From positions 32,001 through 96,000 of the IMG/VR virus record IMGVR_UViG_3300027969_002800: a stretch of 64,000 nucleotides of DNA. The stretch is one strand, 5' to 3'. Shown here piece by piece: positions 3-63,724 of the stretch. The position numbers were made by a program, and so were the translations under genes. The DNA comes from a virus. The notes under the pieces were generated by a model. The model searched no databases, was not told the DNA's origin, and worked only from the letters and a program-made list of their open reading frames with translations. Each line of letters opens with the position of its first letter. The first letter of the stretch is position 1.

Positions 3-3000
3 AGGTTTACACAAGAGATAAATCAAAACCTTGATGGTAACTATTATGTATTAATTCCTGCAGATGGTTCTACTGAGTGGATGATGAATCTTGGTAACAC
101 TATAAAACTAAAAGAGATTGAGGGTGGAAGAGCTTGGAGTAAAATCAATAAGATATTTCAAGGATATTTAAAAGATGATATAGCTCTTGCTTTAGATGCT
201 GATAATAGAGAGAAGTTAAATAATATTGGAAACAAAGCTAAAGAACTAAGATTCTTCAAAGATATACTTTCTGAAAAAGCACTAGCTGATATAAATGAAC
301 TTATATCTGAGAATGCTACTATGGAATCATTTGAAACTTACATTAGTGAGAATGCAGAAGATATTAATAATTCTATAAAAGAATACATAGATTCAACTGT
401 TGTTGAGACAAGAGAAGTGCTTACAGAGAATAAACAAATTAGATTACTTAAAGAGGGTGTATACGCTTATAGTGGATTAATTGACACATTTGCAAAAAAT
501 GAAGCATTTGATAAGTTTGCTCTTTCTGATCAAACCATAAATGATATATTGACATTTGCTAATGTTAATTACATCATTAATAATATTGAATATCACAAAG
601 TTTTATTTGGAGATCCTTATCAGTTTGCTATTAAGAAAGATGGTTCATTAGATGAGACCAAACGTATCAAATCTTTCTTATCTCCTAGAAGAACTACATT
701 TGATACTCCTGAATTTAATACATTCTTGAATCAAAAGTTAAATAAAATTGGTGAGATTAATTTAAAACCTGGAGACCCTGGATACCAACAATTCAAAGCT
801 TATACTAACACTGTAACATTTAAAGATGTAACTATTGCAGGAAGTCTTAGTAATGCTATTTCTGCTTATAGTAAAACAAATGAAGCTGATGCAATGTCTT
901 GGTTAATGGATGGTACATATAGAGAGATTAAACTTAAGAATGGTCAATGGAGTGAAGAAGCTGAAGCTTGGCACCAATGGCAAATGGCTTATACAAGACA
1001 AAACTATCCAGGATATACATACACTAGTGATAACCTTAAAAGACATGATACTGCTTTAGTTAAAACTAAAGAGCCTAAACATGTATTGGAAGTATTAAAA
1101 CCTATTGTGTCTGGTAATAAATATGGTAAAAACAATTTAGATCTTGTTCTAGATAAGTTTTCACAAATGCCTGTATACTACAGTATGGTAAAAGGTACTA
1201 CACTGGAGAAACTTTATGTTAAGATGTTTGAGGCTGGTGTAGGATATGCTATTGTTGAATCTGGTAGAAAGGTTGGAGCTGAAGAGTTACATTCATTGTA
1301 TAATACAGATGGTTCATTTAATGATAATGCATTTAATAATAATATTCAAGTGCCTTGGAAAGCTTATGGTATCCAAGTAGAAACTGCAACAGAAGGAGTT
1401 AAACAACAAACAAGAGGATCTCAGCTTACTAAGTTATCAAGTATGGATTTATTTGATAATGGTCAGACTATTGGAGCTACACCTGAAAGACAAGAAGCTA
1501 TTAGAAATGAATACAATCGTAATGTAAAGATATTAAATGATTTACATCAACATGGATATAACACTCTATTAACTAGACTTGGTGTTGTAGATAATGGAAA
1601 CGGATTTACACTTAAAGATGGTAAAGCTGTATCTGAAACTCTTATGCGTGAATTGTTAAGAAGAGAAGCTTCTGATAATACAATAGATACATTACAGCTT
1701 GATAAAGAGACTAATCAATTCTTAATTCCATTTGAAGCATCTCCTTCTTATATTGAGATAAGAAATGTTCTTTACTCATTGATTGATAAATCTATCATCT
1801 CTCCTAAGATGAATGGTGGTGCTCATGTACAGGTGCCTGCAACAATGTTTGAACAAGCAACTAAAGGAAGAAGTCTTGCTATTAAAACAGCAGAAGGTTG
1901 GAAGAAAATATCTAAAGAAGCTTATAATGCTCTTTCTGATGCAGATAAAAAGAATGTAATGTTAACTGATGACACACTTAAGTTTTACACTAAAGCAGAT
2001 CCTTATTGTGAAATATTACTTCCTCATTGGTTAAAAGGTAAACTTGGTAAACATGCAGATAAATCTGATGAAGAACTAATAGAATATCTAAACAATACAC
2101 CTGATGGTAAAGCTTTGTTACAAGGTATTGGTTTCCGTATTCCTACACAAGCTCTATCCTCTGTAGAAGCAGTTAGAGTGAAAGGGTTTCTTCCACAATA
2201 CATGGGATCAACTGTTGTTGTTCCTTCAGAAATCACTACTAAAGCAGGATCGGATTTTGATATAGATAAGTTAAATATGTACCTTAAATCTACTTACCTA
2301 GATAAGAATGGAGATGTTAGACTAATCAAATACATGGGATCTGAAGAAGCTACTAAGGAGTTCTATGGTGATATGTTTGATAAAGGATTACTTCTTAGCA
2401 AAGAACAAACTAGACAACTAGAACAAGAGCTTGCTCTTGGTAAAGATGCTGAGTATGAAGATAGACTTGTTAAGAGTATGTTTGGTGATCTTGGTGTATT
2501 CTCTGATGAAGACATCATTGATGACTTTACTAAATCATTAACTGAACAAGGAGTCAAAGAAACTGTTGTAAATGAAATGTATAAGAAATCTTTAGAGAAT
2601 GAATACTATGACTCTCTTGAGAAACTTATAACATTACCAGAAAACTTTGAAAGACTTATATCTCCTATTGGTGATGCTGGACTTAAGGCATTATCTATCG
2701 AATTAGATAAGTTAAGAGGGTATGATGAGACAACTATTAAGAATAGAATGCTTGATAGAAACTATCTAACTACTCTTAGAAACTCATTTGTTACAGCTAA
2801 ACGTTGGGTAGGTATTGCAGCAGTTAATATTACAAATCTATCATTGAAACAAAAGAGTGAAGTGTATATCGATCCTTCTAAGTTCTCAGGATTATCTGAA
2901 CAAGATGAAAGATTCTTAGGTGATGGAGAGATTGCATTGAAGCATAACACAGTGATGATTGATGGACAGGAAAGAGTTTCTTTATCTGGAACAACAGTAA

Positions 3001-5750
3001 AAGATTCAACTGAACTTATATCTAATAGACTTTCTGGGTATGCAACATCTTTTGTGGATGTAGCTAAGGATGACTATATAACTAAGATTATACAATCAGA
3101 TCTTGTTATTGGTACATTTATGTTCCTTGAGAATATTGGAGCAGGTGAACAAGCAGCAATGTTCTTAAATCAACCAATCATTTCTGAATACTTAAAATAT
3201 TTAAATAGTGTAAGTGCTAAAGGATTATTTACTGGTAAAAATATTGGAGTTATAAAAGATAAATTTGTAACTACTAAAGATAATCTTGCATCTACAGAAT
3301 TAAATGTTACAAACTTAGATGGTAACATTGTAGATTATTATGCAGGCACTACATTCAATGCAACAAGAAATGCTGAACAACATAAGATACTTGATGAATT
3401 CTTGAAATATGCTAAGATGGCTGAGTATAATTTTAAATTTACACAAGCTACAAACTATGATACCACTAAACTAAGAAGTGCTGAAACACTTTCTAAGAAA
3501 CAATGGAGAACACAAACTGCATTAGATACAAACATAATAAGTTCTGTTGATAATATATTGAATTCTACATTCATTGGACCACAGTCTAAATTCTTAGATA
3601 AGTCTACAGAAGCAATGGGAGCTGTTCTTAAACTTGATCAACTTGAGTTTAAAGAAATAACTAACACTGTTCTTAAGAGCTTTGGTAACAATGAGTACTT
3701 GGCTAATGATAAGTTTGAGAAGATAGCAGTGGAGATCAAAGCTGCATTCATTGACTATGTTGTACAGAATGAAACTAAGTATAGTGACAGGATAAAAGAA
3801 TTGCTTATAGATGATAACACTTCTGTGGCAGTTAGAATGGAAATAGCTAAGCAGAACAATCCAAACCTACAAATTCTTAAAGAGTTGCAAGTTGAAACAG
3901 GAGAAAGACCTGATGGTGTAAAAACTATTAGATTAAAGGTGAGACCTGATAATGCTGCTGATAAGAATATGTACACAGGAATGATGAGAGAACTTAGAGA
4001 CACTCCTGCAACAAATCAATTATATAAAGACATTGTAGAACTATCTATATTACAAGGAACATATGCTTCTCCATTATCTATTAGAGAGATTATCCCAATA
4101 GAAGACTACAGTGCTATAGTTGAACCAATCATTTCTGGACTTGTAGCTAACAAAAGTCTTGATGAGTTTACTAAAGGATGGTATCAAAGAAACAATTTCA
4201 AAAACTCTGATGTATTTCCTACTGTAGAAAACATTAAGTTCTTTCAGTCATTCACAGAACAACCTATAAGAACACCAGAAGGAGATCTATATAAATACTT
4301 CTCTTATGCATTTCCATCAGCAGAAGGTCTTGGCATAAAAGATGAGGATAGAAAGATTTTATTCCTTAGTGAGAAATATAACTTTATGGATTTAAAACAT
4401 GACTATGTTAAAATTCCTAGAGTTGTAGGTGGTATAGATATGGTTAATGGTAGAGAAGTTAGTTCAGCTGATTATGCCAGAAGAAAAGCTAAAGGTGATT
4501 ACTCATTAAAAGATTACTTTGGATATGAAAAAGTTAAAGATGAGTATGGTCAACCATTAATTATATATAAAACAATTAAAGGAGAAATAATAGGTCATCA
4601 TGTATACAAACTTATCAATCTATATGGAGATGGTAATAGAGCTACAGAGAACTATGAATATTTCAAACCATCAGTGATTGATAATGGATCAATGAAAATT
4701 GATGCAGAGATTCCTAATGCTGACATTATTAATTATTATGGTGCTAGTTTAGAAAAAGAAGACTTATCTTTACCAACAGAAGAAGTTATAACTGAACCTA
4801 AACAAGTGACTGAAAAATCTAAAAATATAGAAGTGGTAGATAGATACTCTATTACAGATGTACAAGCTAACCCAAATAAGATTTATGTATTTGGAGATAA
4901 TACTAAACGAGTAGGAACTGGTGGGCAAGCTCAAATTAGAAACAATCCTAATGCTATGGGTATTGCTACAAAATTAGAACCATCTAATGAACCTAATGCA
5001 TTTATGTCAGATAAAGATTTAGCTAGTAATAAAGAGGTAATTGATGGTGATATAACTAAGATAAAAGCAACAGGAAAGGCTATTGTATTACCTAAAGATG
5101 GATTTGGTACAGGACTTGCTAAACTAAAAGAAAAAGCTCCACAAACTTATGCATATTTAAAACGAAGACTATTAGAAGAATTTGGATTTGATAATGATAA
5201 AGGAACTATAACTGAACAAGTTGAAAAAGCTAAGCAAAGAGAATTGTTTACCTTTGAAAAAGGTATAGCTCAGAAATCATTCAGAAACAAAACTCTTAAC
5301 TTTGTAGATAAAATTACTACTAAGAAAGATACAGTGGTAGGTATGCAGTTTAATAAACAAACAAAAATAATAAATGTTGATCAAAAGGCGATGGTTCAAA
5401 AGTTTGAAGAAAAAGCTTGGACAACTCCTTCTCAACAATTAGATGGATCCTTTGCTACAGCTCTTGATGCAAATGAATTCAAGTCTGCAGAAGAGTGGTT
5501 TACATTTGGATTACTACATGAAGTTAAGCATGATACTATATTTAAAGAAGAAGGTGAGACTACTGGTCAATATGAAGATAGAATCAATCAAGCTGCATTA
5601 GAAGATCTAAGAAAGAATTATAATATTGAAGAATCTACAGCTGAAGTTATGACAGATTTAGGAATGCCAATATCTTTGCTTGGAATTTCTCAAGAAGAAT
5701 GGAATAGTTTATCAGTAGAGGAAAAAGAACAAATAAAAAAATGTAATTAA
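3..5750 (+). CDS. Giant virion-associated RNA polymerase, crAss-like (5' truncated by the window edge)
   Basis: Frame is open from nt 3, upstream of the annotated Met at 81. Catalytic DxDxD motif in AGSDFDIDKLNMY, preceded by IGFRIPTQ as in crAss-like vRNAPs; more than 1900 aa. The C-terminal region adds a YVFGDN..G.GGQA domain and an LLHEVKH (HExxH) motif. Confidence 0.88.
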   Translation, partial: RFTQEINQNLDGNYYVLIPADGSTEWMMNLGNTIKLKEIEGGRAWSKINKIFQGYLKDDIALALDADNREKLNNIGNKAKELRFFKDILSEKALADINELISENATMESFETYISENAEDINNSIKEYIDSTVVETREVLTENKQIRLLKEGVYAYSGLIDTFAKNEAFDKFALSDQTINDILTFANVNYIINNIEYHKVLFGDPYQFAIKKDGSLDETKRIKSFLSPRRTTFDTPEFNTFLNQKLNKIGEINLKPGDPGYQQFKAYTNTVTFKDVTIAGSLSNAISAYSKTNEADAMSWLMDGTYREIKLKNGQWSEEAEAWHQWQMAYTRQNYPGYTYTSDNLKRHDTALVKTKEPKHVLEVLKPIVSGNKYGKNNLDLVLDKFSQMPVYYSMVKGTTLEKLYVKMFEAGVGYAIVESGRKVGAEELHSLYNTDGSFNDNAFNNNIQVPWKAYGIQVETATEGVKQQTRGSQLTKLSSMDLFDNGQTIGATPERQEAIRNEYNRNVKILNDLHQHGYNTLLTRLGVVDNGNGFTLKDGKAVSETLMRELLRREASDNTIDTLQLDKETNQFLIPFEASPSYIEIRNVLYSLIDKSIISPKMNGGAHVQVPATMFEQATKGRSLAIKTAEGWKKISKEAYNALSDADKKNVMLTDDTLKFYTKADPYCEILLPHWLKGKLGKHADKSDEELIEYLNNTPDGKALLQGIGFRIPTQALSSVEAVRVKGFLPQYMGSTVVVPSEITTKAGSDFDIDKLNMYLKSTYLDKNGDVRLIKYMGSEEATKEFYGDMFDKGLLLSKEQTRQLEQELALGKDAEYEDRLVKSMFGDLGVFSDEDIIDDFTKSLTEQGVKETVVNEMYKKSLENEYYDSLEKLITLPENFERLISPIGDAGLKALSIELDKLRGYDETTIKNRMLDRNYLTTLRNSFVTAKRWVGIAAVNITNLSLKQKSEVYIDPSKFSGLSEQDERFLGDGEIALKHNTVMIDGQERVSLSGTTVKDSTELISNRLSGYATSFVDVAKDDYITKIIQSDLVIGTFMFLENIGAGEQAAMFLNQPIISEYLKYLNSVSAKGLFTGKNIGVIKDKFVTTKDNLASTELNVTNLDGNIVDYYAGTTFNATRNAEQHKILDEFLKYAKMAEYNFKFTQATNYDTTKLRSAETLSKKQWRTQTALDTNIISSVDNILNSTFIGPQSKFLDKSTEAMGAVLKLDQLEFKEITNTVLKSFGNNEYLANDKFEKIAVEIKAAFIDYVVQNETKYSDRIKELLIDDNTSVAVRMEIAKQNNPNLQILKELQVETGERPDGVKTIRLKVRPDNAADKNMYTGMMRELRDTPATNQLYKDIVELSILQGTYASPLSIREIIPIEDYSAIVEPIISGLVANKSLDEFTKGWYQRNNFKNSDVFPTVENIKFFQSFTEQPIRTPEGDLYKYFSYAFPSAEGLGIKDEDRKILFLSEKYNFMDLKHDYVKIPRVVGGIDMVNGREVSSADYARRKAKGDYSLKDYFGYEKVKDEYGQPLIIYKTIKGEIIGHHVYKLINLYGDGNRATENYEYFKPSVIDNGSMKIDAEIPNADIINYYGASLEKEDLSLPTEEVITEPKQVTEKSKNIEVVDRYSITDVQANPNKIYVFGDNTKRVGTGGQAQIRNNPNAMGIATKLEPSNEPNAFMSDKDLASNKEVIDGDITKIKATGKAIVLPKDGFGTGLAKLKEKAPQTYAYLKRRLLEEFGFDNDKGTITEQVEKAKQRELFTFEKGIAQKSFRNKTLNFVDKITTKKDTVVGMQFNKQTKIINVDQKAMVQKFEEKAWTTPSQQLDGSFATALDANEFKSAEEWFTFGLLHEVKHDTIFKEEGETTGQYEDRINQAALEDLRKNYNIEESTAEVMTDLGMPISLLGISQEEWNSLSVEEKEQIKKCN

Positions 5751-61694: not shown

Positions 61695-61862
61695 AATAGG
61701 ACCTTCTCCCTTGAGAGATGTCAATTGTTGAGGTTAGGAACTTTGGATACCCTGCTTCTCTATGAGTACTCAACACCTTCTCTGCGTGGATAGGACTCAA
61801 CATTCGTGGCATGCAAACTACCCAATGTCTGTTACTGTGCTATTTGCGTCAAGTAACTGCTG

Positions 61863-61958
61863 TGATTGAGACAGGACTTGAACCTGTATGTGTACCGAGT
61901 TTATTTGGATTATGAGTACACTTAACCCAATTAGCGTCTACCATTTCGCCACTCAATC
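61863..61958 (-). tRNA. tRNA-like element (Leu-type D arm, aberrant anticodon region)
   Basis: Acceptor GATTGAG/CTCAATC+A; D arm TGGCGAAATGGTAGACGC; T arm ACAGG-TTCAAGT-CCTGT; no canonical 5-bp/7-nt anticodon arm. Confidence 0.6.
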
Positions 61959-61975
61959 ATTTAATAATAGATAAA

Positions 61976-62479
61976 CTACATTTTATTTATATAAGATCTA
62001 TTTGCAGATATATCACGTATTGTTGCATAAGGTATATCATACTCTATAGATAAATATTTCAAATCTAACTTTTCTTTATTAGTTCTTCTTAATGAGATTA
62101 TATTATATATCTGAGTAACTAAAGTAATATCAAATTGTCTATTAGGTGGTACATGTCCTTTTTGAAACTTTTTACCCTCATCTACTACTAATCTACCTTT
62201 AGCTTTACAATCTTGCATATTATCTTTCTGTGTACCTAAAAATAAATGATTAGGATTTACACATTTTCTGTTATCACATGTATGACAAACTTTTAATGTA
62301 TTATCTGTGATATTACCGTAAATTAGCTCATATGATAATCTATGAGAACCATGTGTCTTATCTTTTGTTTTAAATGCACCGTATCCATTTGATCTACATG
62401 ATGCTGTCCATTCCCAACAATCATTCTCTGATTTGATACTTACTTTATCCCAGAATCTTTTAATTTGTTCTTCAGTCAT
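61976..62479 (-). CDS. HNH homing endonuclease
   Basis: RFWDKV..CWEW..GYG..HRLSY..VCHTCDNRKCVNPNHLFLGTQKDNMQD. Confidence 0.9.
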   Translation of the reverse strand: MTEEQIKRFWDKVSIKSENDCWEWTASCRSNGYGAFKTKDKTHGSHRLSYELIYGNITDNTLKVCHTCDNRKCVNPNHLFLGTQKDNMQDCKAKGRLVVDEGKKFQKGHVPPNRQFDITLVTQIYNIISLRRTNKEKLDLKYLSIEYDIPYATIRDISANRSYINKM

Positions 62480-62494
62480 AATATAATTATTTTG

Positions 62495-62543
62495 CCACAG
62501 GGATAAGAATTGAACTTACATTTACATACCATTATGCCCTGTG
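62495..62543 (-). ncRNA. Mini tRNA-like element lacking an anticodon arm
   Basis: CACAGGG/CCCTGTG acceptor; CATA-ATGG-TATG D-like arm; 5-nt linker; GTAAG-TTCAATT-CTTAT T arm. Confidence 0.65.
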
Positions 62544-62875
62544 TGGTGGAGGTGGCGGCATACGATAGCCGCGTCCAAATTACGTTCATCAATACAATTT
62601 ATACAGCTTATTTAGGGTCAAGCTCAGCTTAACGATCCACCACTCTGTTTAATCTAACAGAGAAATCTTCATTAATTTAGGCTGCTACACCAAGATCAGT
62701 ATCTACATTCAATAATGAGAACACTTTGTTCATGTTAGCTTCGATTTGTGCGTTTGCTCCTAGAGCCACTACACGAGAATTGTTTTTGCCATTTAATTAA
62801 ATTCACCTTAGTTTACAGTTATCTCTCTGGCTGATTGTATTAATTATTGGTAACCTGTCAAATCCAGTCACCCCC
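62544..62875 (-). ncRNA. ssrA: tmRNA
   Basis: 5' GGGGGTGACTGGATTTGACAG and 3' CACCTCCACCA form an acceptor stem with G3:U70 and encoded CCA. Tag ORF 62790-62677 ends ..GVAA*. 332 nt. Confidence 0.93.
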
Positions 62876-62879
62876 AAAA

Positions 62880-63312
62880 TTGTAGGATATCGCTTAACCT
62901 ACGAAGTTGATCACACTTCTTTTCTATACGAACGATTTTTTTTAGCACCCAGTTTATATAGCTTGAATCTCTCAAGCACCATGCCTTATTAGGGTCTCTA
63001 TATAAACTTAGGGTCACGTAGTAAGAGATGCTCTAAATGTTTTTTACAGATAGACTGGGACACATTACTACTTGCTGAGAACTCATTTGTGTTGTATATG
63101 CAGAAATTCTCATATCTTCATCTCATTATCTTTCTCAAGGATAACAACACATTCTACATCTCTGTAGACATCTTTATGTAAACACACTACTATAGCCAAG
63201 TCTTTTAACGCAGACCTCATTAAGGCAGGCTTTTTGTTTACAAAGGTATTCAATGTTTAACCTATAGCTTCTAACAGATTATAAGTTCTGACGCTTTACA
63301 CAGCTTAGCTAT
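62880..63312 (-). ncRNA. Candidate large structured non-coding RNA
   Basis: About 430 nt with no ORF in the track; many hairpins, three capped by GAGA loops; long-range complementary segments; lies between a TATATTTG box and the tmRNA. Confidence 0.5.
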
Positions 63313-63320
63313 TTATTATG

Positions 63321-63328
63321 CAAATATA
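63321..63328 (-). promoter_or_regulatory. Bacteroidota-type -7 box (TATATTTG) heading the RNA cluster
   Basis: TAnnTTTG consensus. Confidence 0.6.
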
Positions 63329-63493
63329 ATAAATTATTATTGATTAAGTGTATGTCTTACATCAATTGTTCTTTGTCTTATAATTCCTCTCTTGAAATTA
63401 TATATCACTTCTACTATTAGTCTCTTAGACAATGTATGTCTGTAGGTATTAGTTGAACCAACTAATGTTCCTTTACTAATTCTAGGTCTCATG

Positions 63494-63724
63494 TTACAGC
63501 GTAGCAATGAACATAGTTATTGATGCTGTAGCTAATATAGCACACACCCAGCATAATATATTGAAATCACGCTTATATATAGCTTTCTGTTTCTCTAGCA
63601 CATCTATTATCTGATCTTTGATCTCTAATGCTCTTTCTGCTTTATTCTGATATTCATGTACATCAGCTTTAATAAGCTGTATTTGATTCAATAGTTGATC
63701 TATTGTCTTTAAATCTTTCTTCAT
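63494..63724 (-). CDS. Coiled-coil protein with C-terminal TM helix
   Basis: 76 aa. Confidence 0.5.
   Translation of the reverse strand: MKKDLKTIDQLLNQIQLIKADVHEYQNKAERALEIKDQIIDVLEKQKAIYKRDFNILCWVCAILATASITMFIATL

What the first reader, a model, noticed from the sequence alone, without database searches (positions are those of the whole stretch)
62880..63312. Unrecognised ~430-nt ornate RNA upstream of the tmRNA
Seen (coordinates on +): an 11-bp perfect stem 62951-62961/62998-63008 enclosing a GCTTGA-GAGA(T)-TCAAGC hairpin. Further GAGA-capped hairpins lie at 63126-63144 and 63153-63168. Long-range pairs occur at 63088-63095/63144-63151 and 63018-63024/63065-63071. A crossing pair at 63076-63083/63106-63112 suggests a pseudoknot. 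There is no ORF in the track and a promoter box sits directly upstream. I see no RNase P or intron core motifs. Inference: a large structured RNA in the style of the tRNA-linked phage RNAs (ROOL/GOLLD class), or a new class.
Basis: partly seen in the sequence, partly recalled or inferred. Interest (0 to 1): 0.75.

Follow-up and report, generated by a model that had tools for sequence, protein, structure and literature searches.

The report
New structured RNA family in phages
The stretch upstream of the phage tmRNA encodes a roughly 320-nucleotide folded non-coding RNA that belongs to a previously unnamed family found in hundreds of environmental phage sequences, and its relative in the model crAss-like phage phi14:2 lies in a region reported as one of that phage's most abundant transcripts, of unknown function.

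Summary
The core runs from 63263 to 62942. A promoter-like box and a 49-nt leader hairpin lie upstream. The tmRNA (62875-62544) lies 66 nt downstream.

It is not a chance fold. An 18-mer from the RNA occurs exactly in 103 IMG/VR stretches and at least 119 metagenome contigs. It occurs in only 6 stretches from 185,579 bacterial and archaeal species, and 2 of those are real copies.

Conserved blocks and eight helices recur. Two covariance models hit every family locus. All 16 pairs of P3, P4 and P5 carry compensatory changes: 95.8% of cells pair against 76.2% when shuffled. P1, P2, P7 and P8 also covary.

No frame is open in any of 68 members. No Rfam family matches.

About a third of the loci have tRNA or tmRNA genes nearby, always on the same strand.

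The only cultured carrier is Cellulophaga phage phi14:2. There the homologue fills an intergenic region that a preprint reports as highly transcribed.

Function is unknown. My best guess is a stable trans-acting RNA matured with the tRNA and tmRNA genes.

The parts
62942..63263 (-). Conserved core of the structured RNA (P1 to the 3' tail GCUAA), about 322 nt
   Evidence: Covariance model R1 scores 107 bits on 63062-63188. Model R2 scores 94.7 bits on 62937-63097.
63321..63328 (-). Promoter-like box TATATTTG, fitting the Bacteroidetes -7 type. A start site about 63313 is inferred.
   Evidence: Sequence. The consensus is recalled, not tested. Among family loci 15 of 79 have such a box within 140 nt upstream, against 8.6% of control windows.
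63264..63312 (-). Leader hairpin: a 6-bp closing stem around two small hairpins. It is not part of the family core.
   Evidence: It is 80% identical over 63265-63332 to the DNA just upstream of tRNA-Ala in Flavobacterium phage elemoA. It is present upstream of the RNA in 10 of 93 family loci.
63244..63263 (-). P1 hairpin: AGGU/ACCU with the conserved 12-nt loop UAAACAUUGAAU
   Evidence: The loop core AAACAUUGA is invariant in alignments A2 and A3. The stem shows compensatory types. Mean consecutive pairs are 4.97 against 4.17 +/- 0.14 with shuffled partners.
63178..63241 (-). P2: GUAAAC at 63236-63241 pairs with GUUUAC at 63178-63183, with a variable cap between. P2 is absent in compact members.
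   Evidence: Cognate duplex energy is -5.14 against -3.84 +/- 0.24 kcal/mol for shuffled partners. Compensatory types are listed in the same output (sequences).
63153..63168 (-). P3 hairpin (UCUAC-AGAGAU-GUAGA)
   Evidence: 5 of 5 pairs have changes on both sides across 94 sequences.
63145..63151 (-). P4, 5' strand (UGUGUUG)
   Evidence: It pairs with 63088-63094. 7 of 7 pairs have changes on both sides, and 98.9% of cells pair.
63126..63144 (-). P5 hairpin with the conserved loop CUUGAGAAA
   Evidence: 4 of 4 stem pairs have changes on both sides, while the loop is nearly invariant.
63096..63115 (-). P6 variable hairpin.
   Evidence: This region is variable in length and sequence across the family. 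The hairpin appears in the fold.
63088..63094 (-). P4, 3' strand (CAACACA)
63072..63087 (-). Junction J4/7 (AAUGAGUUCUCAGCAA), the most conserved stretch. UUCUCA is the candidate pseudoknot partner of the P5 loop.
   Evidence: It is exact in 103 IMG/VR stretches and at least 119 metagenome stretches. It is nearly unchanged in 25 loci collected through a different block. The pseudoknot pairs never covary.
63018..63071 (-). P7: GUAGUAA at 63065-63071 pairs with UUACUAC at 63018-63024, with a variable cap between
   Evidence: Compensatory variants and clean P7-less variants appear in independently collected loci.
62942..63014 (-). P8 and the 3' tail. ACCC/GGGU is 63011-63014 with 62947-62950. The 11-bp stem is 62998-63008 with 62951-62961. 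The inner hairpin is 62961-62977. The tail GCUAA is 62942-62946.
   Evidence: Coordinates. In P8, 11 of 12 modelled pairs have changes on both sides, but the layout differs between members.
62876..62941 (-). Spacer between the RNA and the tmRNA, with no predicted terminator
   Evidence: The scan lists no terminator-like site here.
62544..62875 (-). Phage tmRNA, the downstream neighbour and not part of the new RNA
   Evidence: Rfam tmRNA model, 72.8 bits against a gathering score of 47.

Best explanation
The minus strand of 63263-62942 encodes a member of an unnamed family of structured non-coding RNAs. Members range from about 270 to 520 nt and are carried by phages, probably of Bacteroidota hosts.

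The fold has eight helices. P1 is a hairpin with an invariant loop. P2 is optional. P3 is a hairpin. P4 is a long-range helix that encloses the P5 hairpin and a variable P6. A 16-nt invariant junction follows, then P7 and P8 with variable caps and a GCUAA tail. The P5 loop may pair with the junction to form a pseudoknot.

What is shown: the family exists, its helices covary, it is on this strand, it is non-coding, and it is essentially confined to phage sequences. A published RNA-seq study reports the intergenic region that holds its relative in phage phi14:2 as abundantly transcribed.

What is inferred for the window:
- It is transcribed from a promoter near 63321-63328 as one precursor with the tmRNA, an HNH gene and tRNA-Thr.
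- The precursor ends at the terminator-like hairpin 61694-61669.
- The RNA is released by the enzymes that trim tRNA and tmRNA ends.

What is a guess (about 0.3): the released RNA is stable and acts in trans. It would serve as a scaffold or decoy for a host or phage factor of the translation or RNA-processing machinery.
For: Family:
- An 18-mer from J4/7 is exact in 103 IMG/VR stretches, and 102 of them carry the flanking blocks.
- It is exact in at least 119 metagenome stretches. Of these, 115 carry the blocks and 95 are new distinct cores.
- Model R1 matched all 92 non-redundant sources. Model R2 matched 92 of 94, the two misses being L002 and L003, the two loci not expected to hold the RNA.
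- Four stretches that hold the 18-mer by chance scored only 24-28 bits and a fifth gave no match. Real copies with a complete core scored 48 bits or more.

Structure:
- P3, P4 and P5 pair in 95.8% of cells against 76.2 +/- 0.6% in shuffles. All 16 of their pairs have changes on both sides. The covariation score is 0.470 against 0.108 (0 of 500 shuffles reach it), and sliding the partners leaves at most 50.8% paired.
- P7 and P8 pair in 89.3% against 84.2%. Fourteen pairs change on both sides against 8.6 +/- 1.3 expected.
- P1 and P2 pass partner-shuffling tests.
- Loci collected through a different block show P7 compensations and clean P7 deletions.

Strand:
- Many G-U pairs exist only on this strand. 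One P3 pair alone has 36 U-G and 9 G-U cells.
- Every tRNA or tmRNA gene within 1.5 kb is on the same strand.

Non-coding: no frame is fully open in any of 68 members.

Phage-specific:
- Only 2 of the 6 stretches found across 185,579 species are real copies. Both lie on low-GC contigs of metagenome-assembled genomes.

Expression:
- A preprint (10.1101/2020.03.07.982082, passages read) reports the g004-g005 junction of phi14:2 as transcribed rightward above most protein genes, from the earliest time point and without later decline.
- The homologue lies at about 2903-3364 on that strand. That is just after g004 (2194-2904) and before g006.
- Contigs from RNA libraries of related phages bridge the tmRNA and the RNA.

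Processing:
- In L047 and L093 a tRNA-Met 3' end abuts P1.
- In L036, L070 and L031 the tmRNA starts a few nucleotides after the 3' tail.
Against: - No function or partner was found.
- Neighbouring proteins are mostly of no known family.
- Sites complementary to the P1 loop are not enriched in the window: 44 found against 48 expected.
- The pseudoknot has no covariation. Four types of change in its 3' strand are not compensated (L116, L129/L135, L139, L122).
- Only 35 of 104 loci have a tRNA or tmRNA gene within 1.5 kb, and 20 of 118 have a tmRNA downstream. Processing by tRNA enzymes therefore cannot be the general route.
- Only 15 of 79 loci have the promoter-like box upstream.
- The window's own transcript was not observed. 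The RNA-library contigs come from relatives, are contigs rather than reads, and could include DNA.
- The gene g005 is not in the RefSeq table I saw. Placing the homologue in the 'g004-g005 junction' rests on g004 and g006 alone.
- The family was collected through exact words, and the alignments were fitted to my models. Both inflate apparent conservation and pairing.
Confidence: 0.8

Rival explanations
1. It is a ribozyme. For example, it might cut itself out of the precursor, or act on tRNA or tmRNA precursors or on a host RNA. The invariant junction and the pseudoknot would form the catalytic core.
For: The unpaired stretches are extremely conserved: the J4/7 junction and the loops of P1 and P5. 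The fold is modular and large. The RNA sits directly against tRNA or tmRNA genes in some loci.
Against: It matches no known ribozyme family in Rfam. No conserved flanking sequence suggests a cleavage site, and the flanks differ from locus to locus. Nothing here tests catalysis.
Confidence: 0.12
2. It assembles into a homo-oligomeric RNA particle, as reported for ROOL and GOLLD, and works as a container or a multivalent scaffold.
For: The setting is the same as described for ROOL and GOLLD: phage-borne and close to tRNA genes. I saw only the abstract of 10.1101/2024.12.08.627333 in the listing, and the tRNA link is partly recalled. The RNA is large and ornate with variable peripheral caps, and the region holding its phi14:2 homologue is abundantly transcribed.
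Against: It has no sequence or model similarity to either family. It is smaller. Nothing here speaks to oligomeric state.
Confidence: 0.1
3. It is a cis-acting 5' leader of the tmRNA precursor that controls the processing or level of the tmRNA.
For: In the window it lies 66 nt upstream of the tmRNA with no terminator between. A tmRNA follows it in 20 of 118 loci. RNA-library contigs bridge the two.
Against: Most loci have no tmRNA downstream. In phi14:2 about 670 nt, including a former ORF call, separate the two. Some loci have tRNAs or protein genes downstream instead. Two loci carry second copies of the 5' part.
Confidence: 0.04
4. It is not an RNA gene. It would instead be small protein genes, a DNA-level element such as an origin or a promoter array, or a decayed tRNA, tmRNA or intron remnant.
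For: There are two short ORFs on the minus strand, of 49 and 47 aa. Homing-endonuclease genes are common nearby.
Against: No frame is open in any of 68 members. Compensatory changes and strand-specific G-U pairs point to selection on an RNA. ARAGORN finds no tRNA-like gene in the stretch, and Rfam finds no intron, tRNA or tmRNA match there. Alternative genetic codes do not give a credible gene.
Confidence: 0.02

Closest known systems
The 'long non-coding RNA' of the g004-g005 junction of Cellulophaga phage phi14:2 (Drobysheva et al., bioRxiv 10.1101/2020.03.07.982082; passages read)
   Same: It is the same family. The phi14:2 locus scores 99.7 bits with R1 and 97.9 bits with R2. It shares the 30-nt junction block exactly. 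It lies upstream of that phage's tmRNA on the same strand.
   Different: The preprint reports only transcription of the intergenic region, and states that the function remains to be determined. The passages I read describe no fold, family or homologues. The phi14:2 copy is longer (about 460 nt), has a branched P3, and lies about 670 nt from the tmRNA.
ROOL and GOLLD RNAs (Rfam families; large phage- or prophage-borne RNAs of unknown function)
   Same: They are large, ornate, non-coding and carried by phages. They are often close to tRNA genes (partly recalled; abstract seen). Their function is unknown.
   Different: Neither covariance model matches. The helices and conserved motifs differ. This RNA is smaller. 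Carriers appear to be phages of Bacteroidota in water and soil metagenomes, not of Lactobacillales or rumen bacteria (recalled).
Phage tmRNA
   Same: It is a neighbour on the same strand, probably on the same precursor. Both are stable structured RNAs carried next to phage tRNA genes.
   Different: The new RNA has no tRNA-like domain and no tag reading frame. The Rfam tmRNA model matches only 62544-62875.
Candidate structured RNAs predicted from IMG/VR (Fremin et al. 2023, PMC10690425; passages read)
   Same: That study mined the same collection for covarying motifs and found many near tRNAs. This family or parts of it may be among its 8,495 IMG/VR candidates.
   Different: The passages I read name no such motif.
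HDV-like theta ribozymes next to tRNAs in gut phages (PMC10879173; only the listing and start of the abstract seen)
   Same: They are phage RNAs physically linked to tRNA genes.
   Different: They are small self-cleaving ribozymes of a known fold (recalled). No Rfam ribozyme model matches this RNA.

Membership tests
ROOL RNA (Rfam) | Match to the family's covariance model | tested here: not met
   There is no match in the window at gathering score, or in 62400-63500 at E up to 10. There is none in 15 other family loci at E up to 1.
ROOL RNA (Rfam) | Phage or prophage setting close to tRNA genes (property recalled) | tested here: met
   tRNA or tmRNA genes lie within 1.5 kb in 35 of 104 loci, all on the same strand.
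GOLLD RNA (Rfam) | Match to the family's covariance model | tested here: not met
   no match.
tmRNA | tRNA-like domain and tag reading frame; match to the Rfam tmRNA models | tested here: not met
   The tmRNA models match only 62544-62875 and 62400-62608, not 62876-63336. ARAGORN finds nothing there.
RNase P RNA | Match to the Rfam RNase P models | tested here: not met
   There is no RNase P match at E up to 10 in the window stretch, or at E up to 1 in 15 loci.
Group I or group II intron | Match to the Rfam intron models, and a host gene interrupted at a conserved site | tested here: not met
   There is no intron model match. The flanks differ between loci and show no split gene.
tRNA or tRNA-like gene | Cloverleaf detected by ARAGORN or the Rfam tRNA model | tested here: not met
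   The only tRNA in the window is at 61862-61958. T-loop-like hairpins occur in 6 of 89 P7 caps, and not in the window's cap.
The new family described here (unnamed) | Core of P3, P4 and P5 plus the invariant junction AAUGAGUUCUCAGC | tested here: met
   The window scores 107 bits with R1, and all pairs are present.
The new family described here (unnamed) | 3' domain: P7, the GUGA junction, P8 closed by ACCC/GGGU, and the tail GCUAA | tested here: met
   The window scores 94.7 bits with R2.
The new family described here (unnamed) | P1 hairpin with the loop core AAACAUUGA | tested here: met
   It lies at window 63244-63263. The loop core is invariant in 22 of 22 aligned members.
The new family described here (unnamed) | Pseudoknot between the P5 loop and the junction | tested here: inconclusive
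   The 6 pairs are possible in the window and in at least 87 of 94 sequences, but none covaries. Independent loci show both wobble-compatible and uncompensated changes.

The most novel reading that the evidence does not exclude
This is a new class of large functional RNA specific to phages. It would be a ribozyme, a self-assembling particle or the RNA core of a ribonucleoprotein. It would belong to a portable module of translation RNAs, together with tmRNA and tRNAs, that phages of Bacteroidota express from the first minutes of infection to take over or protect the host's translation or RNA-repair machinery. In the crAss-like model phage phi14:2 the region that holds it is among the most abundantly transcribed.
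Probability: 0.25. Interest if true: 0.9.

Novelty: categorically new. Interest (0 to 1): 0.8.

Why it matters
Few large structured RNAs of unknown function are known in bacteria and phages. Each one studied so far has shown something new about what RNA can do.

This family is large: more than 200 distinct sequences. Its helices are well supported by covariation, and it is essentially confined to phages.

It also has a cultured, tractable carrier. Phage phi14:2 is the model crAss-like phage, and published RNA-seq already shows heavy transcription of the region that holds the homologue. The function can therefore be tested directly by deletion, pull-down and structure determination.

It also accounts for a run of small 'hypothetical protein' calls in the original phi14:2 annotation, and probably for similar calls in many metagenomic phage genomes.

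Tried and rejected
- **Rfam.** Searches at gathering score and at permissive E-values, on the window and on 15 other loci, found only tRNA and tmRNA.
- **Single-sequence folding.** The z-scores are weak and favour the wrong strand, so I did not use them as evidence.
- **Alternative genetic codes.** TAG=Q and table 4 give no credible gene. The 126-aa open stretch on the plus strand under TAG=Q runs over the tmRNA and against the direction of the neighbouring ORFs I take to be genes.
- **A 5'-3' closing helix.** RNAalifold suggested GGU with GCU. I set it aside because those 5' bases form the P1 hairpin, which has compensatory changes.
- **A 4-bp helix between AGCA of the junction and UGCU of the tail.** I considered it by eye. 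Three loci show wobble-compatible changes and three types show mismatches, so I do not claim it.
- **Antisense targets of the P1 loop in the window.** There is no enrichment.
- **Neighbouring proteins.** Most have no family. SPFH/Band_7 genes lie upstream in 9 of about 45 loci, and homing endonucleases recur. Neither suggests a mechanism. phi14:2 g004 gave no Pfam match.
- **Flavobacterium phages FpV4 (L002) and elemoA (L003).** Neither model finds a copy.
- **The sigma-70 promoter scan.** It found fewer sites than in shuffles, and the consensus does not suit Bacteroidota.
- **RNA-library runs.** Parts of the stretch without cover are not evidence of anything. Habitat labels of runs that hold only a small share of the words were not used.
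- **A third covariance model for P1 and P2.** I did not build it. MAFFT placed the 3' strand of P1 inconsistently, so I tested P1 and P2 by scripts instead.
Full report
**1. Setting**

The window is positions 32001-96000 of a 116,993-bp IMG/VR virus record that CheckV rates as complete. Around the finding the ORFs that I take to be genes lie on the minus strand.

Rfam places a tmRNA at 62544-62875 on the minus strand, at 72.8 bits against a gathering score of 47. ARAGORN places a tRNA-Thr at 61862-61958 on the same strand. An HNH endonuclease ORF (61976-62479) lies between them.

The nearest deposited phages by DNA are Cellulophaga phage phi14:2 (Crassvirales) and FpV4-like Flavobacterium phages. 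The window also encodes rIIA/rIIB-like proteins, a DNA polymerase and two very large proteins. The finding is therefore upstream of the tmRNA in the direction of transcription and must be read on the minus strand.

**2. The observation**

In my naming:
- 62951-62961 / 62998-63008 is the inner part of P8, with its enclosed hairpin at 62961-62977.
- 63126-63144 is P5.
- 63153-63168 is P3.
- 63088-63095 / 63144-63151 is P4.
- 63018-63024 / 63065-63071 is P7.

The 'crossing pair' is complementary in the window. However, it uses the loop of a variable hairpin (P6). The conserved candidate partner of the same junction bases is the P5 loop.

No ORF above 49 aa lies in 62876-63336. Reading TAG or TGA as sense gives nothing credible.

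The folding energy of the single sequence is unremarkable: z is -1.61 on the minus strand and -3.28 on the plus strand. On its own the observation could not be told from chance.

**3. Homologues**

A distant BLAST found collinear blocks in phi14:2, including a perfect 30-nt block. An 18-mer from that block gave these exact matches:

| Collection | Stretches with an exact match | Real family copies |
|---|---|---|
| IMG/VR viral contigs | 103 | 102 carry the flanking blocks; L033 looks like a chance hit inside a gene |
| One genome for each of 185,579 bacterial and archaeal species | 6 | 2, both on low-GC contigs of metagenome-assembled genomes, one of them 100 kb |

A second scan used a 19-mer from P3-P4. 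It gave 52 stretches, 25 of them new loci that lack the exact 18-mer.

Among 50,697 deposited phage records only phi14:2 matches, both with the window copy and with a consensus-like copy. The own genome holds one copy.

**4. Architecture**

Conserved blocks keep the same order in all members, while the spacing varies. Lengths from P1 to the tail range from 273 to 516 nt.

The order, 5' to 3', is:
- P1, a hairpin whose loop core AAACAUUGA is invariant.
- P2, which is optional and has a variable cap.
- A conserved junction.
- P3, a simple hairpin with loop AGUAAU in one subtype. In another subtype, which includes phi14:2, it is the closing stem of a branched insert.
- The 5' strand of P4.
- P5, a hairpin with loop CUUGAGAAA.
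- P6, a variable hairpin.
- The 3' strand of P4.
- The junction AAUGAGUUCUCAGCA.
- P7, with a variable cap.
- The short junction GUGA.
- P8, closed by ACCC/GGGU, with a variable cap.
- The tail GCUAA.

**5. Covariation**

Model R1 covers P3, P4 and P5. It has 127 positions and was built from 30 sequences. It matched all 92 non-redundant sources, with 94 matches including second copies in L035 and L104.

Four stretches that merely hold the 18-mer scored 24-28 bits and a fifth gave no match. Real copies with a complete core scored 48 bits or more.

| Measure on the R1 alignment | Observed | Control |
|---|---|---|
| Cells forming a standard pair | 95.8% | 76.2 +/- 0.6% (shuffles) |
| Pairs of P3, P4, P5 with changes on both sides | 16 of 16 | not separately controlled |
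| Cells with double changes | 314 | 68 |
| Covariation score | 0.470 | 0.108 (0 of 500 shuffles reach it) |
| Cells paired after sliding partners by 1-3 columns | n/a | at most 50.8% |

Model R2 covers P7 and P8 and has 145 positions. It matched 92 of 94 sources. The two misses are the FpV4 and elemoA loci, which were not expected to hold the RNA.

| Measure on the R2 alignment | Observed | Control |
|---|---|---|
| Cells forming a standard pair | 89.3% | 84.2 +/- 0.4% |
| Pairs with changes on both sides | 14 | 8.6 +/- 1.3 (0 of 500) |
| Covariation score | 0.150 | 0.085 |

P7 is nearly invariant in that set, partly because its 5' strand lies inside the search word. The 25 independently collected loci fill this gap:
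- They show compensated P7 variants: GUGCUUC with GAAGUAC, GUGGU with ACCAC, and GACUA with UAGUC.
- In seven loci P7 is cleanly absent, and the junction runs straight into the P8 strand.

P1 averages 4.97 consecutive pairs against 4.17 +/- 0.14 with shuffled partners (maximum 4.66 in 300 shuffles), with about ten different stem types. The P2 duplex energy is -5.14 against -3.84 +/- 0.24 kcal/mol.

Caveats:
- Members were collected through exact words.
- The alignments are fitted to my structures.
- The sequences are related to one another.
- Calibration of the models was shortened.
- P8 has more than one layout, so its inner pairs fit the consensus poorly. The inner five pairs pair in 75.9% of cells.

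**6. The pseudoknot**

UGAGAA of the P5 loop can pair with UUCUCA of the junction in at least 87 of 94 sequences, but none of the six pairs covaries.

In the independent loci, three carry an A-to-G change that keeps a wobble pair. Four types of change are not compensated. The pseudoknot is a reasonable candidate and no more than that.

**7. RNA, and on this strand**

- No frame is open through the element in any of 68 members. The median longest open stretch is 25-45 codons, depending on the frame.
- G-U pairs, which would be A-C mismatches on the other strand, are frequent.
- Every tRNA or tmRNA gene within 1.5 kb is on the same strand.
- In phi14:2 the element lies on the strand that the preprint calls rightward.

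**8. Context**

ARAGORN finds a tRNA or tmRNA gene within 1.5 kb in 35 of 104 loci. A BLAST with phage tmRNAs finds a tmRNA 5' end 153-448 nt downstream of the anchor in 20 of 118 loci, or 17 of the 107 loci with enough sequence. This is a lower bound.

In some loci the neighbours abut the RNA. A tRNA-Met ends right at P1 in L047 and L093. A tmRNA starts a few nucleotides after the tail in L036, L070 and L031. Those ends could be made by the tRNA-processing enzymes. This is an inference, and it cannot hold for the majority of loci, which have protein genes as neighbours.

Neighbouring proteins are mostly of no known family. SPFH/Band_7 genes lie upstream in 9 of about 45 loci examined. HNH, GIY-YIG and LAGLIDADG endonuclease genes recur, and one locus has an RNA ligase.

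In the window, a promoter-like box (63321-63328) and a 49-nt leader hairpin precede P1. That leader is shared at 80% identity with the DNA upstream of a tRNA-Ala in Flavobacterium phage elemoA, and with 10 of 93 family loci.

No terminator-like site lies between the RNA and the tmRNA. The next such sites on the minus strand are at 61694-61669 and 61475-61453, after the tRNA-Thr.

**9. Expression**

In the passages I read, the phi14:2 preprint states the following:
[quoted passage not shown] In the RefSeq record g004 is 2194-2904 and g006 is 4602-4901. g005 does not appear in the table I obtained. The family member lies at about 2903-3364 and the tmRNA at about 4031-4500, both on the plus strand. 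I infer that the first junction holds this family's RNA and the second holds the tmRNA.

For the window itself I have only indirect data. Contigs assembled from four freshwater RNA libraries carry relatives of the region.
- One contig of 576 nt (word depth 146) spans the tmRNA and the RNA's P8 region.
- One contig of 938 nt (word depth 294) joins the tmRNA to the junction block, across a 3' domain of different length.

These are contigs, may include DNA, and come from relatives, so they are only a weak hint.

**10. What it is not**

No Rfam family matches the window copy at E up to 10, or 15 other copies at E up to 1, apart from tRNA and tmRNA. That excludes membership of ROOL, GOLLD, RNase P RNA, the intron families, and the known ribozymes and riboswitches as Rfam models them.

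Full-text searches found no description other than the phi14:2 remark. They found no paper that prints the signature motifs, apart from unrelated matches.

A survey of IMG/VR predicted 8,495 candidate structured RNAs (PMC10690425, passages read). Its lists are in supplements I could not open, so this family may be among them unnamed.

**11. Reading**

Shown:
- A phage-specific, widespread, covarying RNA family of about 270-520 nt.
- A modular build, since P2, P7 and the caps can be dispensed with.
- Published heavy transcription of the region that holds the homologue in phi14:2.

Inferred:
- Co-transcription with the tmRNA and tRNA-Thr in the window.
- Release by tRNA-processing enzymes where the RNA abuts such genes.

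Guessed: a stable trans-acting RNA that binds a factor of translation or RNA processing (about 0.3). Ribozyme and self-assembling particle are the live rivals.

The invariant loops and junction are where a partner, ligand or active site should be sought.

Noticed in passing
window 63264-63332 (-); L003 2501-2570: The promoter-like box and the 49-nt leader hairpin are 80% identical to the DNA directly upstream of tRNA-Ala in Flavobacterium phage elemoA, which has no copy of the RNA. The same leader precedes the RNA in 10 of 93 family loci. It may be a portable promoter-and-leader cassette for stable-RNA genes.
   Followed up: partly
L035 4422-4537; L104 1240-1369; L113 1461-1593; L115 about 3650-3800: There are second copies, or copies that hold only the 5' part. 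They keep P3 to P5 and the junction up to ...GAGUUCUCAGC but lack P7. In L115 the RNA stops inside the junction and runs into a terminator-like hairpin. The 5' domain may be able to work alone.
   Followed up: partly
L116, L118, L126, L127, L128, L134, L138: In these variants P7 is cleanly missing. The junction ...CAGC is followed by UU and then the P8 strand GACCC.
   Followed up: partly
window 61862-61958 (-): The tRNA-Thr (anticodon AGU) is called at 97 nt, which is long for a tRNA-Thr. It may hold an insert or an unusual arm.
   Followed up: no
window 61976-62479 (-): An HNH homing-endonuclease ORF (Pfam HNH_3, E 2.9e-8) sits between the tmRNA and tRNA-Thr. HNH, GIY-YIG and LAGLIDADG endonuclease genes recur next to the RNA in other loci.
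   Followed up: partly
L002 about 1730-4058 (Flavobacterium phage FpV4): FpV4 has a 2.3-kb stretch without annotated genes. It holds an unannotated tmRNA (Rfam, 58.2 bits at 2238-2652) but no copy of the new RNA. What fills the rest was not examined.
   Followed up: no
L001 / L108 (phi14:2 record 3100-4520): The original phi14:2 annotation had eight ORF calls of 33-42 aa (some of these lengths were recalculated after the session from the coordinates) over the new RNA and the tmRNA. RefSeq later removed them, but the table I saw annotates neither RNA.
   Followed up: yes
L013, L014, L025, L028, L029, L046, L049, L054, L055: A gene for an SPFH/Band_7-domain protein of about 270 aa lies upstream of the RNA on the same strand in 9 of about 45 loci examined. 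It is directly adjacent in L046 and L049.
   Followed up: no
P7 caps of L013, L059, L070, L073, L079 (and L005): In 6 of 89 members the variable cap of P7 holds a hairpin whose loop resembles a tRNA T-loop. The L005 match looks weaker than the others.
   Followed up: no
window 63096-63115 (-) and the P6 region of other members: The variable region after P5 often holds a second GAGA-rich motif. The window has UGAGAAUU, and L102, L016, L030 and L036 have similar ones. It could compete with the P5 loop for the junction.
   Followed up: no
contig lengths: Carrier contigs range from about 20 kb up to 270-373 kb. The RNA therefore occurs in phages of very different genome sizes, which suggests exchange between lineages.
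   Followed up: no
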